Below are positions 5,498-64,000 of a stretch of 64,000 nt of DNA, piece by piece. The position numbers were made by a program, and so were the translations under genes. The DNA is taken from sequence record OZ413489.1; one strand, given 5' to 3'. The stretch's first letter is position 1; the number at the start of each line of letters is the position of its first letter. The notes below the pieces were generated by a model. It was given only the letters and a program-made list of their open reading frames with translations, was not told the DNA's origin and did no database searches. The stretch comes from a phage.

Positions 5498-6538
5498 ATG
5501 TCAAAACCTAGTTTTCCATTAGAGATTTGGGCAGAGGAGGATCAGGTTCTGCCTAACACCCACAGACAGAACAGGCTACGCCCGATTGATGATTTGTGGA
5601 GAAAAGGTTGGGATCTTGGTCAAAAGCCCTCATGTGAAGAACTTAACTATATTTTCAATATGCTCGGGACTTGGGCAAAATACATCGCTGACGAGCAGAT
5701 CCCCGCTCAAGAAGGCCGTTATCTGGTACGTGATAATAACTTGAGTGATCTTTTGAACATTCCTGTTGCCCGTAGAAACCTTGGGATTATTACTAAGGAA
5801 GAGGCAGACGCCAGGTATGTAAAAGTTACAGGTGATACAATGACAGGCCCATTGGGTTTGCAACGTATCAACTTTAAAGCTGCCGAGTCAGATAAGGCTT
5901 GGATAGAGACAACTATTGGCCCAGATAAGACAACTCTCGACTTTGGGTTAAGTGATAATACCGGGTCGTTTGATGATGGTGGTACATCTACAGTGGATGC
6001 GTTCCGTTGGAGATTCCAGCCAACTCAGCCGGATATTAATCCAGAGTTCACTTTGATGTACCTTAACGCGATCACGGCTAACCGTGCGCTGTTGAAAGTG
6101 GTAGGCAATGTTGAAGTTGTCGATAACATGAGGTGCAATAACCTTACTATCAGCAATACAGCGACATTCACCAACTGTAATGTGGCTAGTCAGTTGACGG
6201 CTGGGTCAGTGTATGTTAATGGTGGTGCAAGTTGTGACAGTATGGTTGTAAGAAGCCAGCACTGTGTTGTCGGTAACAGAAATGTGGTTCGCTCTGTGAA
6301 CGGAGTGACGGCTAACGGTAACGGTGATGTAACGATCACTATCCCGCAGACAGGTGTGCAAGACATCAGAATCGGTGCAAGACTTGTTGACGGCGTTTCC
6401 GAATCTCCAATTCGCAACGGCTACGTTGTCACAGGCTGGCATTTCGGTGACAAAAAAGAGATGCGTGGTTCAACCTACTGGGCAGGACCTTTACAAAAAC
6501 TTGTAAACGGTCAATGGATCACTGTTAATTATGCATAG
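5498..6538 (+). CDS. Tail fibre protein (receptor-binding candidate), paralogue 1
   Basis: 346 aa; homologous over its full length to 7553-8596; shared C-terminus QKLVNGQWITVNYA; GDTMTGPLGLQRI motif common in tail fibres. Confidence 0.7.
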   Translation: MSKPSFPLEIWAEEDQVLPNTHRQNRLRPIDDLWRKGWDLGQKPSCEELNYIFNMLGTWAKYIADEQIPAQEGRYLVRDNNLSDLLNIPVARRNLGIITKEEADARYVKVTGDTMTGPLGLQRINFKAAESDKAWIETTIGPDKTTLDFGLSDNTGSFDDGGTSTVDAFRWRFQPTQPDINPEFTLMYLNAITANRALLKVVGNVEVVDNMRCNNLTISNTATFTNCNVASQLTAGSVYVNGGASCDSMVVRSQHCVVGNRNVVRSVNGVTANGNGDVTITIPQTGVQDIRIGARLVDGVSESPIRNGYVVTGWHFGDKKEMRGSTYWAGPLQKLVNGQWITVNYA

Positions 6539-60160: not shown

Positions 60161-60448
60161 TCATAGTGCCTCTAAGATTTCATATCCTTCGGGTCGGAAT
60201 ACAAGCCACTCCGTGGCTCCGTTTGGTCGATACGCTTTATACAGAACAACCTGATCTCGGCACATGCACATGGCTACATAGTTTTCATCCACACCTGCAG
60301 CCTGCATTGCATCTTCTTCTCCGGCAACCGCTTTGCTTACAACTTCCTTGGTAGGCAGGTGTGCGATCAGCTCGTCACCATCATTAATTCCAAAATGGCT
60401 GAGTTCTCCATTGGTATCTTTGATCTTAATCTTAACCAGATCTTTCAT
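60161..60448 (-). CDS. Hypothetical protein
   Basis: 95 aa; start overlaps the upstream stop. Confidence 0.5.
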   Translation of the reverse strand: MKDLVKIKIKDTNGELSHFGINDGDELIAHLPTKEVVSKAVAGEEDAMQAAGVDENYVAMCMCRDQVVLYKAYRPNGATEWLVFRPEGYEILEAL

Positions 60449-60777
60449 TAGTCTTTCTCCAGGTTCAAAGGTCCTAAGATTTCATATGCCAGATTAGAAG
60501 TTACAAGAGGGTCTTCTGCGTCTTTAGTATTATACCACCCGTGAATAACCAGAGTCCCACTTTGTTTCATGTCCAACTGTAACTCTTCTGCCGTTTCCTC
60601 ATCCAGCTCCAAGATTTCCATAAGGTATTTGATGTTAGGGAGGTATGCAGCTGTTACAGTCCCCTCTACCAGACCTTCAGGCCAACCTACATCTGGATGA
60701 CAAGTAGGAACCAGGTTGGTCAGCTTAATGGTGTACGCTTTTTCTGCACGAGCCTTCAGTAACGGGTCAATCTTCAT
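60448..60777 (-). CDS. Hypothetical acidic protein
   Basis: 109 aa; ATGA coupling. Confidence 0.5.
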   Translation of the reverse strand: MKIDPLLKARAEKAYTIKLTNLVPTCHPDVGWPEGLVEGTVTAAYLPNIKYLMEILELDEETAEELQLDMKQSGTLVIHGWYNTKDAEDPLVTSNLAYEILGPLNLEKD

Positions 60778-61127
60778 TATTCGTCCTCCTCTTCGGTACC
60801 TGCTTCCAGTAATAAGTTAAGAATATCTTCTGCACAAGGCTCATAGAACTCTTGGCCTTCATTATCGATGATTTTATAGTCATCTCCACGAATAATCAGG
60901 GGATCACTCTCAAAATTATCGAGACCTTTAACAACGACAACACGATCGATTGCCATCATTGTAAGAACTTTATCGACATCTTCCTCTGCTACACCATACT
61001 GCAGCAGAATGTCTTTGGTAGGAGGAACAGCATCCACCACAACGCCGTTACCAAAACCTTCTGGAAGTTTAGCTAAAATATCTTCCGGAACCACATTCAC
61101 ATCAAAACCGGTAATTTCTACTTTCAT
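60777..61127 (-). CDS. Small acidic protein, tandem paralogue family
   Basis: 116 aa; begins MKVEITGF; Asp/Glu-rich; resembles 61128-61388 and 62552-62821 in start and composition. Confidence 0.5.
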   Translation of the reverse strand: MKVEITGFDVNVVPEDILAKLPEGFGNGVVVDAVPPTKDILLQYGVAEEDVDKVLTMMAIDRVVVVKGLDNFESDPLIIRGDDYKIIDNEGQEFYEPCAEDILNLLLEAGTEEEDE

Positions 61128-61388
61128 TTACAGCACCTCTTCGTCAACTACTTCATAAAAATGGCCTGGGATTGCAATAGCGTTCTCACCTTCACCTACA
61201 AACACAGTTCCGTCAAGAATCAACATCATAAGAATTTCTGTAATATCCTCTTCCGGAACGTTGCCAAAACCTTTAATCAGCTCGTAGGTTGGAATATTTA
61301 CCTCTAAGATGTCACCATCTTTAGAACGGAAATCAACACCGTCCTGAATCTCTGCCGTTTCAAGGTTTTTCAATTTAATCTTCATCAA
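61128..61388 (-). CDS. Small acidic protein, tandem paralogue family
   Basis: 86 aa; begins MMKIKLKNLETAEI. Confidence 0.5.
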   Translation of the reverse strand: MMKIKLKNLETAEIQDGVDFRSKDGDILEVNIPTYELIKGFGNVPEEDITEILMMLILDGTVFVGEGENAIAIPGHFYEVVDEEVL

Positions 61389-61860: not shown

Positions 61861-62192
61861 TACCGAACCTCCTCAATAACTTCCACATCTGAACCTACCA
61901 CAAATGCAAAAGGACAGGTTTCATGAAAGATATCCGGATCGCCGCCAAGCTTGCTAACAATTTCTCCACCACTAATAAACACAAGCTCACCGATATTCAT
62001 CAGATTGCTGAAATAGTACCCATAATGATTAAAGAATGCAGCAGGGTCAGGTAGACTAGTAGCCTCAAGCACTACATCGGTTGAGGTTACTTTCTTATCA
62101 TAACCTCTCGCCTTTTGAGATGCAAGATCTGCAGAATCCTCAGGCGACCGGAGATGCACAGGAATTGTTTCACCAATAAAGCGTACTTTCAT
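61860..62192 (-). CDS. Hypothetical protein
   Basis: Track ORF to 62219 overlaps the upstream gene by 22 nt; the internal Met (MKVRFIGE) at about 62192 is immediately after the upstream stop. Confidence 0.45.
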   Translation of the reverse strand: MKVRFIGETIPVHLRSPEDSADLASQKARGYDKKVTSTDVVLEATSLPDPAAFFNHYGYYFSNLMNIGELVFISGGEIVSKLGGDPDIFHETCPFAFVVGSDVEVIEEVR

Positions 62193-62196
62193 ATTA

Positions 62197-62460
62197 TCAC
62201 CCAACAACCATAGCTTCAAAAGGAGTCATGAACGAATAAACGGCATCATCATCTGCTTCAGGGAATGCTCCCAAAGACTTCATATCTGAGCCCTTGACAA
62301 ATACAAGGTTTTGATCAAAGGCTTCTTGGGGGTCAATCCGATACATATTTCGTAAAATATCGCTTACCTCCTCATCAAGAGGTGAGTATGCTGTGCACGT
62401 TTTTCCGATCAAGCTTTGAGAATCAGGGTATCCACCTGAAGTTTTAAAATAAACAATCAT
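62197..62460 (-). CDS. Hypothetical protein
   Basis: 87 aa. Confidence 0.45.
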   Translation of the reverse strand: MIVYFKTSGGYPDSQSLIGKTCTAYSPLDEEVSDILRNMYRIDPQEAFDQNLVFVKGSDMKSLGAFPEADDDAVYSFMTPFEAMVVG

Positions 62461-62551
62461 ATAGTATCACCTCTGGTAAGAGATTGGGACTCCTTTCCCA
62501 CAAATAATTACAAATCTTCCTTAGCGAGGAAGTATGCTAATCCAAGCAGGA

Positions 62552-62821
62552 TTATTCCTCTACAATCTCATACACATCAGGAGTTACAATCAACTCTTCT
62601 CCGTTACCCGGTGCAACAAACACCACCAAACCTTCAGGTGTGTGCTTTTTAGCCATCTCGATAACATCTTCTCGCAGAGCTGGCTCCATCAGATCAAAAC
62701 CTTCACCTAGGGCATCACGAACCACCTTCATATAGTCCACTGGTTGTGCTTCAACAATCATGCCTTCAACCAGTCCACAATTTTTGTCTGCCAGCTCAGT
62801 TTGGAATAATTTAATTTTCAT
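62552..62821 (-). CDS. Small acidic protein, tandem paralogue family
   Basis: 89 aa; begins MKIKLFQTELADK. Confidence 0.5.
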   Translation of the reverse strand: MKIKLFQTELADKNCGLVEGMIVEAQPVDYMKVVRDALGEGFDLMEPALREDVIEMAKKHTPEGLVVFVAPGNGEELIVTPDVYEIVEE

Positions 62822-62958
62822 TTAGAGGTCTCCTCAATTATTTGATATTAATAGCCGTAACCTAACACATTAACTACAACTGCGATTGCAAACATAATTT
62901 CAAAGCATGCAATCTCTACATTTGGGACTAATTTCTTAATCACACCCATTGTAGCACC

Positions 62959-63276
62959 TCATTCTCCAAAGTCAATCTTTACTTTGCCTTTCCCCTTACC
63001 TTTCTTTCCACCGCATTTAGCCAGCTGACGTGCTGCAACATCTACCATACGGTCAGTTGCCTCGTAAGCATCACTGCCTTTAGCCTTGGCAATAACTTCT
63101 TTTCCAGAATTGTCAAAAATGAACGCCATAACTTCCTGGTGATCATTTTCAACTTTTACACTCACACGTGCATAGTTGGCAGAGGGATGCAAACGCTCCA
63201 ACTTAGACATTTTGTGGGAAATGAAAGACACCATACCTTCAGTGATTTCTACGTTGCCAGTGATTTCAATTTGCAT
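62959..63276 (-). CDS. hpf: Ribosome hibernation promoting factor / RaiA-like (short HPF family)
   Basis: 105 aa; aligns along its length with short HPF/YfiA proteins (MQIEITGNVEITEG ... VSVKVE ... AKAKGSDAYEATDRMVDVAARQLAK); Lys/Gly-rich tail. Confidence 0.7.
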   Translation of the reverse strand: MQIEITGNVEITEGMVSFISHKMSKLERLHPSANYARVSVKVENDHQEVMAFIFDNSGKEVIAKAKGSDAYEATDRMVDVAARQLAKCGGKKGKGKGKVKIDFGE

Positions 63277-63323
63277 AACGTGTTCCTTTTAAAGAAGAGG
63301 GAACCGAACCCTCTTTGAAAACA

Positions 63324-63353
63324 ATGATACTAAATCTGAAGCGTTGTGTCAAC
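63324..63353 (-). promoter_or_regulatory. sigma70-type promoter for the HPF-like gene
   Basis: Minus-strand reading TTGACA-17 bp-TATCAT, then 5'-UTR hairpin agagggttcggttccctct and RBS aaaaggaac. Confidence 0.55.
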
Positions 63354-63358
63354 AGTTT

Positions 63359-63649
63359 TTACAGATTGTTGTCGATAGTTTTTAAAATATCCACAGCAAG
63401 ATCTGCCATTTTTCGAACATACTCTGCAAACTCAACAGGATCCTTGATCAAAGAATTCACAGGGTCGTACCCTAGAGCGTTCAAAATGGCTGCAGCATCT
63501 ACAACCTTCTCATCATTTGCGAAGATCTCTCCATCAAACTTGTAGGTCCATTTTGAGTCAATCTTGGCAGGGAATGATTGGTCAACGCTTGTTACACCAT
63601 CCTTTTTAAACGCTCCGGTGTTATCAGTGTCTAGAACTAAATCCATCAT
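63359..63649 (-). CDS. Hypothetical protein
   Basis: 96 aa. Confidence 0.5.
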   Translation of the reverse strand: MMDLVLDTDNTGAFKKDGVTSVDQSFPAKIDSKWTYKFDGEIFANDEKVVDAAAILNALGYDPVNSLIKDPVEFAEYVRKMADLAVDILKTIDNNL

Positions 63650-63666
63650 GTTAGTACCTCACCGTT

Positions 63667-64000
63667 TCAGTTTAGCTTTTCTTCAACAACCCCATAGCTC
63701 GGGACAGAGTCAAGAGCTTTCTGGTTTAAAAGTGGTGTAGCAGAATCTGCAAACGGTGTCCAAGTTTTTGTTCTGGCGTTCCAGTAATGCTTCACTCTGG
63801 AATCTGGATGCACTATAACAAAAACTTTTTCACTTGTCAACACATTAATTTCTTCCACACCCCTGCTGATAATTTCTCCGTCATATCCCCCGGTCTGGTA
63901 TCCTTCGTACCAGGTTCTTGCATAGGCATAGCCAGCCTGCCAGCATGCAGCCTCCTCCGAGGTGGAGACTACGTAGAAGTCTTTCTCAAATTCTGGGATA
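63667..64000 (-). CDS. Hypothetical protein, 5' end outside window (paralogue of 61465-61860)
   Basis: Minus-strand frame stays open to the window edge beyond the GTG the track used at 63858; conserved HYWNARTKTWTP segment. Confidence 0.45.
   Translation of the reverse strand, partial: IPEFEKDFYVVSTSEEAACWQAGYAYARTWYEGYQTGGYDGEIISRGVEEINVLTSEKVFVIVHPDSRVKHYWNARTKTWTPFADSATPLLNQKALDSVPSYGVVEEKLN

What the first reader, a model, noticed from the sequence alone, without database searches (positions are those of the whole stretch)
62959..63353. Phage-encoded ribosome hibernation factor (HPF/RaiA homologue) with its own promoter
The 105-aa product aligns along its length with short bacterial HPF/YfiA proteins. 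The gene has a near-consensus promoter (TTGACA-17-TATCAT) and a 5'-UTR hairpin, i.e. it is set up as an early, host-polymerase-transcribed gene. A phage HPF could silence host ribosomes or protect them during takeover. A few phages are reported to carry HPF-like genes, but I am not aware that their role has been established.
Basis: partly seen in the sequence, partly recalled or inferred. Interest (0 to 1): 0.7.

Follow-up and report, generated by a model that had tools for sequence, protein, structure and literature searches.

The report
Known rV5-phage ribosome hibernation factor gene
This is the already annotated and published ribosome-hibernation-factor (HPF) homologue of rV5-like E. coli phages: a real, strongly conserved gene with its own promoter, whose role in infection is still unproven.

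Summary
A 105-aa ORF lies on the minus strand (62959-63276). It passes the curated Pfam Ribosomal_S30AE and TIGR00741 HPF/YfiA cut-offs, and its predicted structure superposes on E. coli and V. cholerae HPF at about 1 Å. An 11/12 sigma-70 promoter (TTGACA-17-TATCAT) and a 7-bp hairpin lie upstream.

It is not new. The window is a Vequintavirus (rV5-like coliphage). The protein is 100% identical to rV5 ORF144, annotated with promoter P144 in DQ832317. Mizuno et al. 2019 (PMC6375957) expressed this exact protein in E. coli. They found no effect on 70S/100S profiles and no protein on 0.5 M NH4Cl-washed ribosomes. They did not regard this negative as conclusive.

What this analysis adds:
- The gene is present in all 118 Vequintavirus records and in a syntenic sister lineage (64% identity).
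- Purifying selection is very strong (dN/dS 0.00-0.06 within the genus).
- It is HPF-like (39-45% identity), not RaiA-like (21-28%).
- It lacks two basic residues that are near-invariant in bacterial homologues, and carries a conserved, disordered Lys/Gly-rich tail.

The most likely function is reversible binding to idle 30S/70S ribosomes. Host shut-off is unlikely. "Early gene" is an inference; the hairpin is genus-specific and not statistically exceptional.

The parts
63347..63352 (-). -35 hexamer TTGACA of promoter P144
   Evidence: Consensus scan. Invariant together with its flank AAACTGTTGACACA in 11 aligned phages, including the sister lineage. Annotated as 'Sigma70-type promoter; P144' in rV5 DQ832317.
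63324..63329 (-). -10 hexamer TATCAT, 17-nt spacer from the -35
   Evidence: 11 of 12 matches, no TG extension. It reads TATCAT or TATTAT in Vequintavirus relatives. At the same spacing the sister lineage has AATTAT.
63295..63315 (-). 5'-proximal hairpin: AAGAGGG / loop UUCGGUU / CCCUCUU. It starts about 1 nt after the inferred transcription start (about 63316-63317).
   Evidence: Fold of -9.9 kcal/mol, z -0.73 against shuffles. A hairpin is kept at this place in all 10 Vequintavirus-type 5'UTRs, with loop indels and one internal mismatch in V18/Murica/nomo. It is absent from the sister lineage, where GAGGG serves as the Shine-Dalgarno sequence. The start site is inferred, not measured.
63284..63288 (-). 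Shine-Dalgarno AAGGA, 7 nt before the ATG
   Evidence: Read from the sequence. Conserved in the alignment.
63010..63276 (-). hpf homologue, S30AE core (residues 1-89), beta-alpha-beta-beta-beta-alpha fold
   Evidence: Pfam, NCBIfam and PDB sequence matches. AlphaFold2 model with pLDDT 85-95 over most of residues 1-80. Foldseek matches to 4HEI_A (rmsd 1.0) and 6H4N_x (rmsd 1.1, TM 0.90). dN/dS 0.00-0.06 within the genus.
62959..63009 (-). C-terminal Lys/Gly-rich tail (residues 90-105, GKKGKGKGKVKIDFGE) plus the TGA stop
   Evidence: pLDDT below 50 for residues 90-105. The 17-residue C-terminal segment from residue 89 has net charge +4, against -4 for the RaiA tail. The amino-acid sequence is kept across the genus despite synonymous changes. 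The sister lineage has a different but also basic tail ending KWDY. Murica has a 1-nt deletion here.
62848..62949 (-). 33-aa hydrophobic ORF, probably co-transcribed and translationally coupled with hpf (rV5 ORF145)
   Evidence: Its ATG lies 9 nt after the hpf stop codon, and the Shine-Dalgarno GAGG (62960-62957) overlaps that stop. Annotated in rV5, V18 and FV3. Absent in the sister lineage.

Best explanation
This is gene 144 of an rV5-like coliphage (genus Vequintavirus), a diverged homologue of the short enterobacterial ribosome hibernation promoting factor HPF (YhbH).

Host sigma-70 RNA polymerase most likely transcribes it from its own conserved promoter, probably together with the small ORF that follows.

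The protein most likely does what its fold does elsewhere. It sits reversibly in the tRNA/mRNA channel of idle 30S/70S ribosomes. This holds or protects the non-translating ribosome pool, or competes with the host's RMF/HPF/RaiA, while the phage grows in slow-growing or starved gut E. coli. It is probably not a host shut-off toxin.

Shown here: family membership by sequence and fold, the promoter motif and its conservation, presence throughout the genus, and very strong purifying selection that includes the tail. Inferred: timing of expression, ribosome binding, and the benefit to the phage.
For: Identity:
- Pfam S30AE 48.3 bits (gathering score 23.7) and TIGR00741 45.9 (cut-off 40.9).
- E. 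coli HPF in PDB at E about 5e-12 over residues 1-89.
- 39-45% identity to enterobacterial HPF against 21-28% to RaiA.
- AlphaFold2 model with pLDDT 82.8, matching V. cholerae and E. coli HPF at 1.0-1.1 Å.
- Columns invariant across bacterial HPF and RaiA are retained: K25, D69, Y71, A73, R83, L85, K87.

Selection:
- Present in all 118 phage records that carry either flanking gene.
- A syntenic copy at 64% identity in a sister lineage, with saturated synonymous sites (pS 0.81, pN 0.25).
- Within the genus, dN/dS is 0.00-0.06 at dS up to 0.8; for example 20 synonymous and 0 non-synonymous changes against FV3.

Promoter.

Against a toxin role: cultures expressing the rV5 protein grew to OD 1 with normal ribosome profiles.
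Against: - The only experiment on this protein found no peptides in 70S/100S fractions and no change in 100S, although the protein was present in crude extract. The ribosomes came from late-exponential cells and were pelleted through 0.5 M NH4Cl. The authors themselves name salt washing, growth phase, or genuine loss of binding as possible causes.
- Both phage lineages have lost two basic residues that are near-invariant in the bacterial proteins: the equivalents of E. coli HPF R17 (now V16) and K79 (now V80/T).
- It scores far below the HPF equivalog cut-off (55.8 against 125).
- No transcription or proteomic time course was found.
Confidence: 0.6

Rival explanations
1. Anti-hibernation competitor, working like RaiA. 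The phage protein occupies the HPF/RaiA site, and its 16-17-residue C-terminal extension hinders RMF binding or 100S maturation. Ribosomes of a starving or defence-arrested host would then stay as quickly reusable 70S for phage translation. This is a specific version of the main explanation.
For: - The tail extends beyond helix 2 by about 17 residues, against 7 in HPF and about 25 in RaiA. It is disordered and conserved at the amino-acid level across the genus.
- Mizuno et al. proposed competition with cellular homologues.
- RMF rises during DRT2-mediated anti-phage dormancy (PMC11100668).
Against: - The tail is basic (+4) whereas RaiA's is acidic (-4), and the two share no sequence similarity.
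- No decrease in the small 100S fraction was reported on expression.
- The tail sequence differs in the sister lineage (pN 0.46 over the tail).
Confidence: 0.2
2. Host translation shut-off factor. The protein blocks the decoding centre of host ribosomes early in infection to silence host protein synthesis.
For: - HPF-family proteins block the tRNA/mRNA sites of the 30S subunit (descriptions of PDB entries 4V8H, 6H4N, 4V8I).
- The gene has a strong sigma-70-type promoter.
Against: - Arabinose-induced expression, from overnight pre-culture through to OD 1, did not stop growth or change ribosome profiles.
- A decoding-site blocker cannot tell host mRNAs from phage mRNAs (inference from the family's mechanism).
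- From my own knowledge, not tested here: HPF-type factors bind vacant rather than translating ribosomes.
Confidence: 0.07
3. Exapted, non-ribosomal function. The S30AE (dsRBD-like) fold was recruited for another ligand, for example an RNA other than rRNA or a nucleotide signal, as in the Acb4 sponge family, whose fold resembles V. cholerae HPF.
For: - No ribosome association was detected.
- Two near-invariant basic residues are lost in both phage lineages.
- Strong selection is consistent with some function, but does not say which.
- The Acb4 monomer is structurally similar to 4HEI (PMC11722364).
- Weak Foldseek matches to dsRBDs and to T7 Gp1.2 (E 4e-3 to 2e-2).
Against: - Full-length sequence homology to HPF, with most family-invariant positions kept.
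- The non-HPF fold matches are about six orders of magnitude weaker than the HPF matches.
- Acb4 resembles HPF only in fold, and the Acb4 paper does not mention Vequintavirus or rV5.
Confidence: 0.12
4. Decaying passenger gene with no function.
For: The negative ribosome-binding result, and one record (Murica) with a frameshifted tail.
Against: - dN/dS of 0.00-0.06 at dS up to 0.8.
- Present in 118 of 118 records.
- Kept at the same syntenic position in a lineage with saturated synonymous divergence.
Confidence: 0.01

Closest known systems
rV5 gp144 / ORF144 (ABI79209), 'sigma 54 modulation factor' or 'ribosome hibernation factor' of Vequintavirus phages
   Same: 100% identical protein. Same promoter (P144) and same neighbouring genes. 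The window is 98.9% identical over 1.5 kb to BASEL phage WalterGehring.
   Different: Nothing of substance. The window is simply another member of the genus.
E. coli HPF (YhbH), short HPF of gammaproteobacteria (PDB 2RQL, 4V8H, 6H4N)
   Same: Same fold (rmsd 1.1 Å, TM 0.90). 41-44% identity over residues 1-89. HPF-type residues at the positions that separate HPF from RaiA, for example ITG-N, VEIT and KVE.
   Different: - Below the HPF equivalog cut-off (55.8 against 125).
- V16 and V80 replace R17 and K79.
- Extra Lys/Gly-rich tail; 105 aa against 95 aa.
- Phage sigma-70 promoter instead of an rpoN-operon context (the HPF operon context is from my own knowledge).
- No effect on 100S when expressed.
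E. coli RaiA (YfiA, protein Y; PDB 4V4G, 4V8I, 1N3G)
   Same: Same S30AE domain plus a disordered C-terminal extension. RefSeq names the phage protein 'RaiA'.
   Different: Only 21-28% identity. NF007654 scores 17.6 against a cut-off of 158. The tail is basic rather than acidic. The RefSeq name is therefore misleading.
Other phage S30AE proteins: Cronobacter phage GAP32, Escherichia phage PBECO4, Xanthomonas phage XaC1; PHROG 8990
   Same: Same fold and family in large myoviruses.
   Different: Separate PHROG: 12469 at E 7.5e-71 against 8990 at E 1.5e-6. About 21-22% identity in structural alignment. Mizuno et al. place GAP32 apart from the rV5 group, implying independent acquisitions.
Acb4 viral nucleotide sponges (SPO1)
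   Same: A small phage protein with an alpha/beta dsRBD-like fold, reported as structurally similar to V. cholerae HPF 4HEI.
   Different: No sequence relationship was claimed or found. The window protein is a sequence-level HPF homologue.

Membership tests
Ribosomal_S30AE / HPF-YfiA family (PF02482, TIGR00741) | Sequence score above the curated family thresholds | tested here: met
   PF02482 scores 48.3 against 23.7. TIGR00741 scores 45.9 against 40.9.
Ribosomal_S30AE / HPF-YfiA family (PF02482, TIGR00741) | beta-alpha-beta-beta-beta-alpha fold | tested here: met
   AlphaFold2 model with strands 2-7, 33-42, 47-55 and 60-67 and helices 13-29 and 70-89. The top 36 Foldseek PDB hits are all HPF, protein Y, RaiA or a related ribosome-bound factor (RafH).
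Ribosomal_S30AE / HPF-YfiA family (PF02482, TIGR00741) | Conserved basic and aromatic surface residues of helices 1 and 2 | tested here: inconclusive
   K22, K25, D69, Y71, R83 and K87 are retained. The equivalents of HPF R17 and K79 (the 'DKL.RQL' motif) are V16 and V80/T in both phage lineages. Which of these contact rRNA could not be checked, because no coordinates or contact tables were available.
Ribosomal_S30AE / HPF-YfiA family (PF02482, TIGR00741) | Binds the 30S decoding region of vacant ribosomes | not testable with these tools
   The published test on the identical protein was negative after a 0.5 M NH4Cl wash of late-exponential ribosomes. The authors call it inconclusive.
Short HPF (YhbH) equivalog, NF007780 | Score at or above the equivalog cut-off | tested here: not met
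   55.8 bits against a cut-off of 125.
Short HPF (YhbH) equivalog, NF007780 | Converts RMF-induced 90S into 100S dimers | not testable with these tools
   Mizuno et al. saw no discernible effect on 100S particles. No stationary-phase test and no test with RMF is known.
RaiA / YfiA equivalog, NF007654 | Score at or above the cut-off, and a RaiA-type C-terminal tail | tested here: not met
   17.6 bits against 158. 21-28% identity. Tail net charge +4 against -4.
Long HPF (Gram-positive type) | C-terminal dimerisation domain, protein of about 180-190 aa | tested here: not met
   105 aa. Only PF02482 is found, and the tail is disordered.
Sigma-70 promoter | -35 and -10 hexamers at 17-nt spacing, upstream of the gene and conserved among relatives | tested here: met
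   11 of 12 matches. The -35 is invariant in 11 sequences. The motif class is enriched 13 against 0.71 expected.
Sigma-70 promoter | Measured transcription start and early timing | not testable with these tools
   No transcriptome of a Vequintavirus was found.

The most novel reading that the evidence does not exclude
The phage HPF is not a hibernation promoter but a counter-measure. Its strongly conserved basic tail, together with an altered helix surface (loss of the R17 and K79 equivalents), would let it occupy the decoding channel loosely. It would keep RMF/HPF, or ribosome-targeting defence toxins, off the ribosome, so that ribosomes of starved or defence-arrested gut E. coli stay usable for phage translation.
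Probability: 0.2. Interest if true: 0.6.

Novelty: already known. Interest (0 to 1): 0.22.

Why it matters
What a virus gains from carrying a ribosome hibernation factor is still an open question, and rV5-like phages are abundant gut coliphages and candidates for phage therapy. The gene itself, its promoter and the idea are already in GenBank and in the literature (PMC3606486, PMC6375957, PMC6969025), so the finding adds no discovery.

The useful points from this analysis are practical:
- The gene is a core gene of the genus under very strong constraint, so the published negative binding result should not be read as loss of function.
- It is HPF-like, not RaiA-like as RefSeq names it.
- A conserved basic tail and two substitutions at otherwise near-invariant basic positions are the obvious targets for mutagenesis.

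Tried and rejected
- Rfam scan of 62000-64000 at E up to 1, looking for a raiA-type or other known RNA element in the leader: nothing found.
- Reading the hairpin as an intrinsic terminator of the upstream gene: rejected. It lies downstream of the -10, has only CUUU after the stem, and the terminator scan did not call it.
- Covariation support for the hairpin: none. Variants differ by loop indels and one uncompensated G-to-A change, and the sister lineage lacks the segment.
- Looking for the gene's slot in other Vequintavirinae genera using the two flanking proteins: both are confined to the same 118 records, so no 'empty site' comparison is possible.
- Exhaustive phmmer search for a closer cellular donor: nothing above 45% identity. 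One high-ranking 1160-aa hit (P0006) is a repeat-protein artefact.
- Residue-level rRNA contacts: Polikanov 2012 is not held, and a literature search for HPF mutagenesis returned nothing relevant.
- Literature searches for a Vequintavirus transcriptome, or for any functional study of a phage HPF after 2019: none found.
- Pfam scan of ten neighbouring small ORFs: no informative hits.

Full report
**1. What is in the sequence**

The minus strand carries a 105-aa ORF at 62959-63276 with an ATG start and a TGA stop. Upstream of it lie, in order:
- an AAGGA Shine-Dalgarno sequence (63288-63284);
- a 7-bp stem-loop (63315-63295);
- a TATCAT -10 hexamer (63329-63324);
- a 17-nt spacer;
- a TTGACA -35 hexamer (63352-63347).

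All of these sit inside the 82-nt gap that follows the stop codon of the preceding gene (63361-63359).

**2. Is it an HPF?**

Yes.
- Pfam Ribosomal_S30AE scores 48.3 bits against a gathering score of 23.7.
- TIGR00741 (HPF/YfiA family) scores 45.9 against a cut-off of 40.9.
- phmmer against PDB sequences puts E. coli HPF first, at E about 5e-12 over residues 1-89.
- An AlphaFold2 model built on a 24-sequence alignment has mean pLDDT 82.8 and a beta-alpha-beta-beta-beta-alpha core over residues 1-89. Residues 90-105 are disordered.
- Foldseek superposes the model on V. cholerae HPF (4HEI, rmsd 1.0 Å) and on E. coli HPF in the 100S ribosome (6H4N, rmsd 1.1 Å, TM 0.90). The top 36 PDB hits are all HPF, protein Y, RaiA or a related ribosome-bound factor.

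Within the family it sits on the HPF side.
- It is 39-45% identical to enterobacterial HPF and 21-28% identical to RaiA.
- It reaches neither equivalog cut-off: HPF 55.8 against 125, and RaiA 17.6 against 158.

The RefSeq product name 'RaiA' is therefore misleading.

**3. Where the window comes from, and what is already known**

The 1.5 kb around the gene is 98-99% identical to many Vequintavirus (rV5-like) coliphages, the best match being BASEL phage WalterGehring.

The protein is 100% identical to rV5 ORF144 (ABI79209). GenBank DQ832317 annotates that ORF as 'sigma 54 modulation factor', together with a 'Sigma70-type promoter; P144' at exactly this place.

The rV5 paper predicted 33 sigma-70-like promoters spread across the genome and placed this gene in the transcription unit of genes 82-163. 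It gives no experimental timing (PMC3606486).

Mizuno et al. 2019 listed rV5, FV3, FFH2, JES-2013 and typing phage 14 as HPF-encoding phages and placed their proteins among gammaproteobacterial HPFs.
- rV5 HPF was expressed from pBAD24 in E. coli NM522 with 1 mM arabinose and harvested at OD600 of 1.
- Ribosomes were pelleted through 0.5 M NH4Cl and sucrose and separated on gradients.
- 70S and 100S fractions were analysed by mass spectrometry.
- HPF peptides were found in crude extract but not on ribosomes, and the 100S profile did not change.

Mathieu et al. 2020 again note hpf in five rV5-like gut isolates. I found no later functional study. The finding is therefore already known, and its function is unresolved.

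**4. What the comparative data add**

*(a) Distribution.* tblastn finds the protein in 118 phage records, all rV5-like, at 94% identity or more. The 119th match is a bacterial record. The two flanking genes occur in exactly the same number of records (118). The gene therefore behaves as a core gene of the genus rather than a sporadic insertion, and the whole block of small genes is genus-specific. Using E. coli HPF as the query, only about a dozen further records in 50,697 match.

*(b) Sister lineage.* A 103-aa protein at 64% identity (P0004) is encoded at the syntenic position on contigs of about 125-137 kb. These contigs share only about 71% nucleotide identity over short stretches with Vequintavirus.

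*(c) Selection.* Between the two lineages synonymous sites are saturated (pS 0.81) while pN is 0.25, or 0.22 in the core and 0.46 in the tail. Within the genus dN/dS is 0.00-0.06 at dS up to 0.8. Against FV3, for example, there are 20 synonymous and 0 non-synonymous differences over the first 100 codons, which include most of the tail. This effectively excludes a decaying gene.

*(d) No recent donor.* An exhaustive phmmer scan of 1.84 billion representative proteins finds nothing cellular above 45% identity.

*(e) Deviations from the bacterial proteins*.
- Both phage lineages have V in place of E. coli HPF R17.
- Both have V or T in place of K79, the Lys of the 'DKL.RQL' motif.
- They keep K22, K25, D69, Y71, A73, R83, L85 and K87.
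- The rV5-type protein ends in a disordered tail, GGKKGKGKGKVKIDFGE, with net charge +4. This tail is conserved in the genus through synonymous changes.
- The sister lineage has a different but also basic tail ending in KWDY.
- RaiA's tail is acidic (net charge -4).

**5. Regulatory features**

*Promoter.* The promoter matches 11 of 12 consensus positions. Strict TTGACA-N16-18-TATNNT sites occur 13 times in the window against 0.71 expected. The -35 hexamer with its flank AAACTGTTGACACA is invariant in 11 aligned phages, including the sister lineage. Transcription by host sigma-70 polymerase is thus a sound inference. 'Early' is not shown, because such promoters are predicted all over rV5.

*Hairpin.* The hairpin folds at -9.9 kcal/mol, which is no better than shuffled sequence (z -0.73).
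- Every Vequintavirus variant examined keeps a stem at the same place, starting about 1 nt from the inferred transcription start. The variation consists of loop indels and one uncompensated mismatch, so there is no covariation support.
- The sister lineage lacks the roughly 30-nt segment altogether and uses the GAGGG as its Shine-Dalgarno sequence.
- Its position fits a 5'-terminal stabilising stem-loop of the ompA type. That comparison is from my own knowledge and was not tested here.
- It is not a terminator by the scan criteria, and no Rfam family matches.

*Transcription unit.* A 33-aa hydrophobic ORF starts 9 nt after the hpf stop codon, and its Shine-Dalgarno sequence overlaps that stop. 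It is probably co-expressed with hpf. A terminator-like hairpin at 62532-62516 after the next gene may end the unit.

**6. Mechanism**

The best-supported reading is that the protein keeps the family's activity: reversible occupation of the tRNA/mRNA channel of vacant 30S/70S ribosomes. On this reading it acts on the idle ribosome pool, either protecting it or competing with host RMF/HPF/RaiA. It would not act as a shut-off factor.
- Supporting the family activity: the fold, the retained family-invariant residues and the extreme purifying selection.
- Against a shut-off toxin: cells expressing the protein grew with normal ribosome profiles.
- The one negative binding experiment used salt-washed ribosomes from late-exponential cells. 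From my own knowledge, not verified here, E. coli hibernation factors are normally studied on crude ribosomes, and high-salt-washed ribosomes are used as factor-free material. The Wada-laboratory methods text is consistent with that usage.

A more specific variant is RaiA-like blocking of RMF-driven 100S formation by the tail. RaiA is HPF's paralogue with a flexible C-terminal tail and it inhibits 100S assembly. However, the phage tail has the opposite charge.

Exaptation to a non-ribosomal ligand cannot be excluded. The points in its favour are the lost basic residues, the negative binding result, and the precedent of Acb4 sponges that share this fold.

**7. Verdict**

- Novelty: already known.
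- Interest is low to modest. The biological question is real, but it is not new, and the window adds nothing beyond another genus member.

Noticed in passing
window 62848-62949 (-): A 33-aa hydrophobic ORF (MGVIKKLVPNVEIACFEIMFAIAVVVNVLGYGY) starts 9 nt after the hpf stop codon, and its Shine-Dalgarno sequence overlaps that stop. It is conserved across Vequintavirus (rV5 ORF145) and absent from the sister lineage. It may be a small membrane protein co-expressed with HPF.
   Followed up: partly
window 60161-61388 (-), possibly also 62552-62821: The small acidic ORFs downstream of hpf look like weak tandem paralogues (blastp 27-31% identity, E 1e-4 to 3e-3 in a 12-sequence database). None has a Pfam match.
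   Followed up: partly
loci L003-L006 (hpf at 6001-6312): A sister lineage of rV5-like phages has a 64%-identical HPF at the same syntenic position, on contigs of 125-137 kb. One is a 136.8-kb contig inside E. coli assembly GCA_012894635.1. It has no close record in the phage collection (at most about 71% nucleotide identity over 17% of a 2.5-kb query).
   Followed up: partly
GenBank records matched by window 62500-64000: Annotation errors have propagated. The hpf gene is called 'ATP-dependent protease La type I' in MT884008-11 and OR0625xx. The neighbouring 89-aa gene (window 62552-62821) is called 'sigma 54 modulation factor' in several MN8505xx records. RefSeq names hpf 'RaiA' although it is HPF-like.
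   Followed up: yes
phage collection hits to window 62959-63276: Eighteen records named 'Campylobacter phage' (MG0656xx, host C. jejuni) carry this rV5-type gene at 97-100% amino-acid identity, along with both flanking genes. They are Vequintavirus genomes, so the host label looks doubtful.
   Followed up: no
whole window, e.g. 37786, 38986, 44218, 44671, 47237, 48659, 50196, 50509 (+); 17246, 19693, 63352, 63840 (-): Strict sigma-70 consensus sites (TTGACA-N16-18-TATNNT) occur 13 times against 0.71 expected. They are on the + strand between about 25.7 and 50.5 kb and on the - strand at the two ends, consistent with convergent transcription units.
   Followed up: partly
locus L013 (Escherichia phage Murica), hpf tail: A 1-nt deletion in the GGGGAAAGG run truncates the Lys/Gly tail, giving 99 aa. 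Metagenomic variant P0003 also has a frameshifted tail. These may be homopolymer sequencing errors or real tail variants.
   Followed up: no
window 62516-62532 (-): A terminator-like hairpin (CTTCCTCGCTAAGGAAG followed by ATTTGTAATT) lies just after the 89-aa gene. It could end a three-gene unit made up of hpf, the 33-aa ORF and the 89-aa gene.
   Followed up: no
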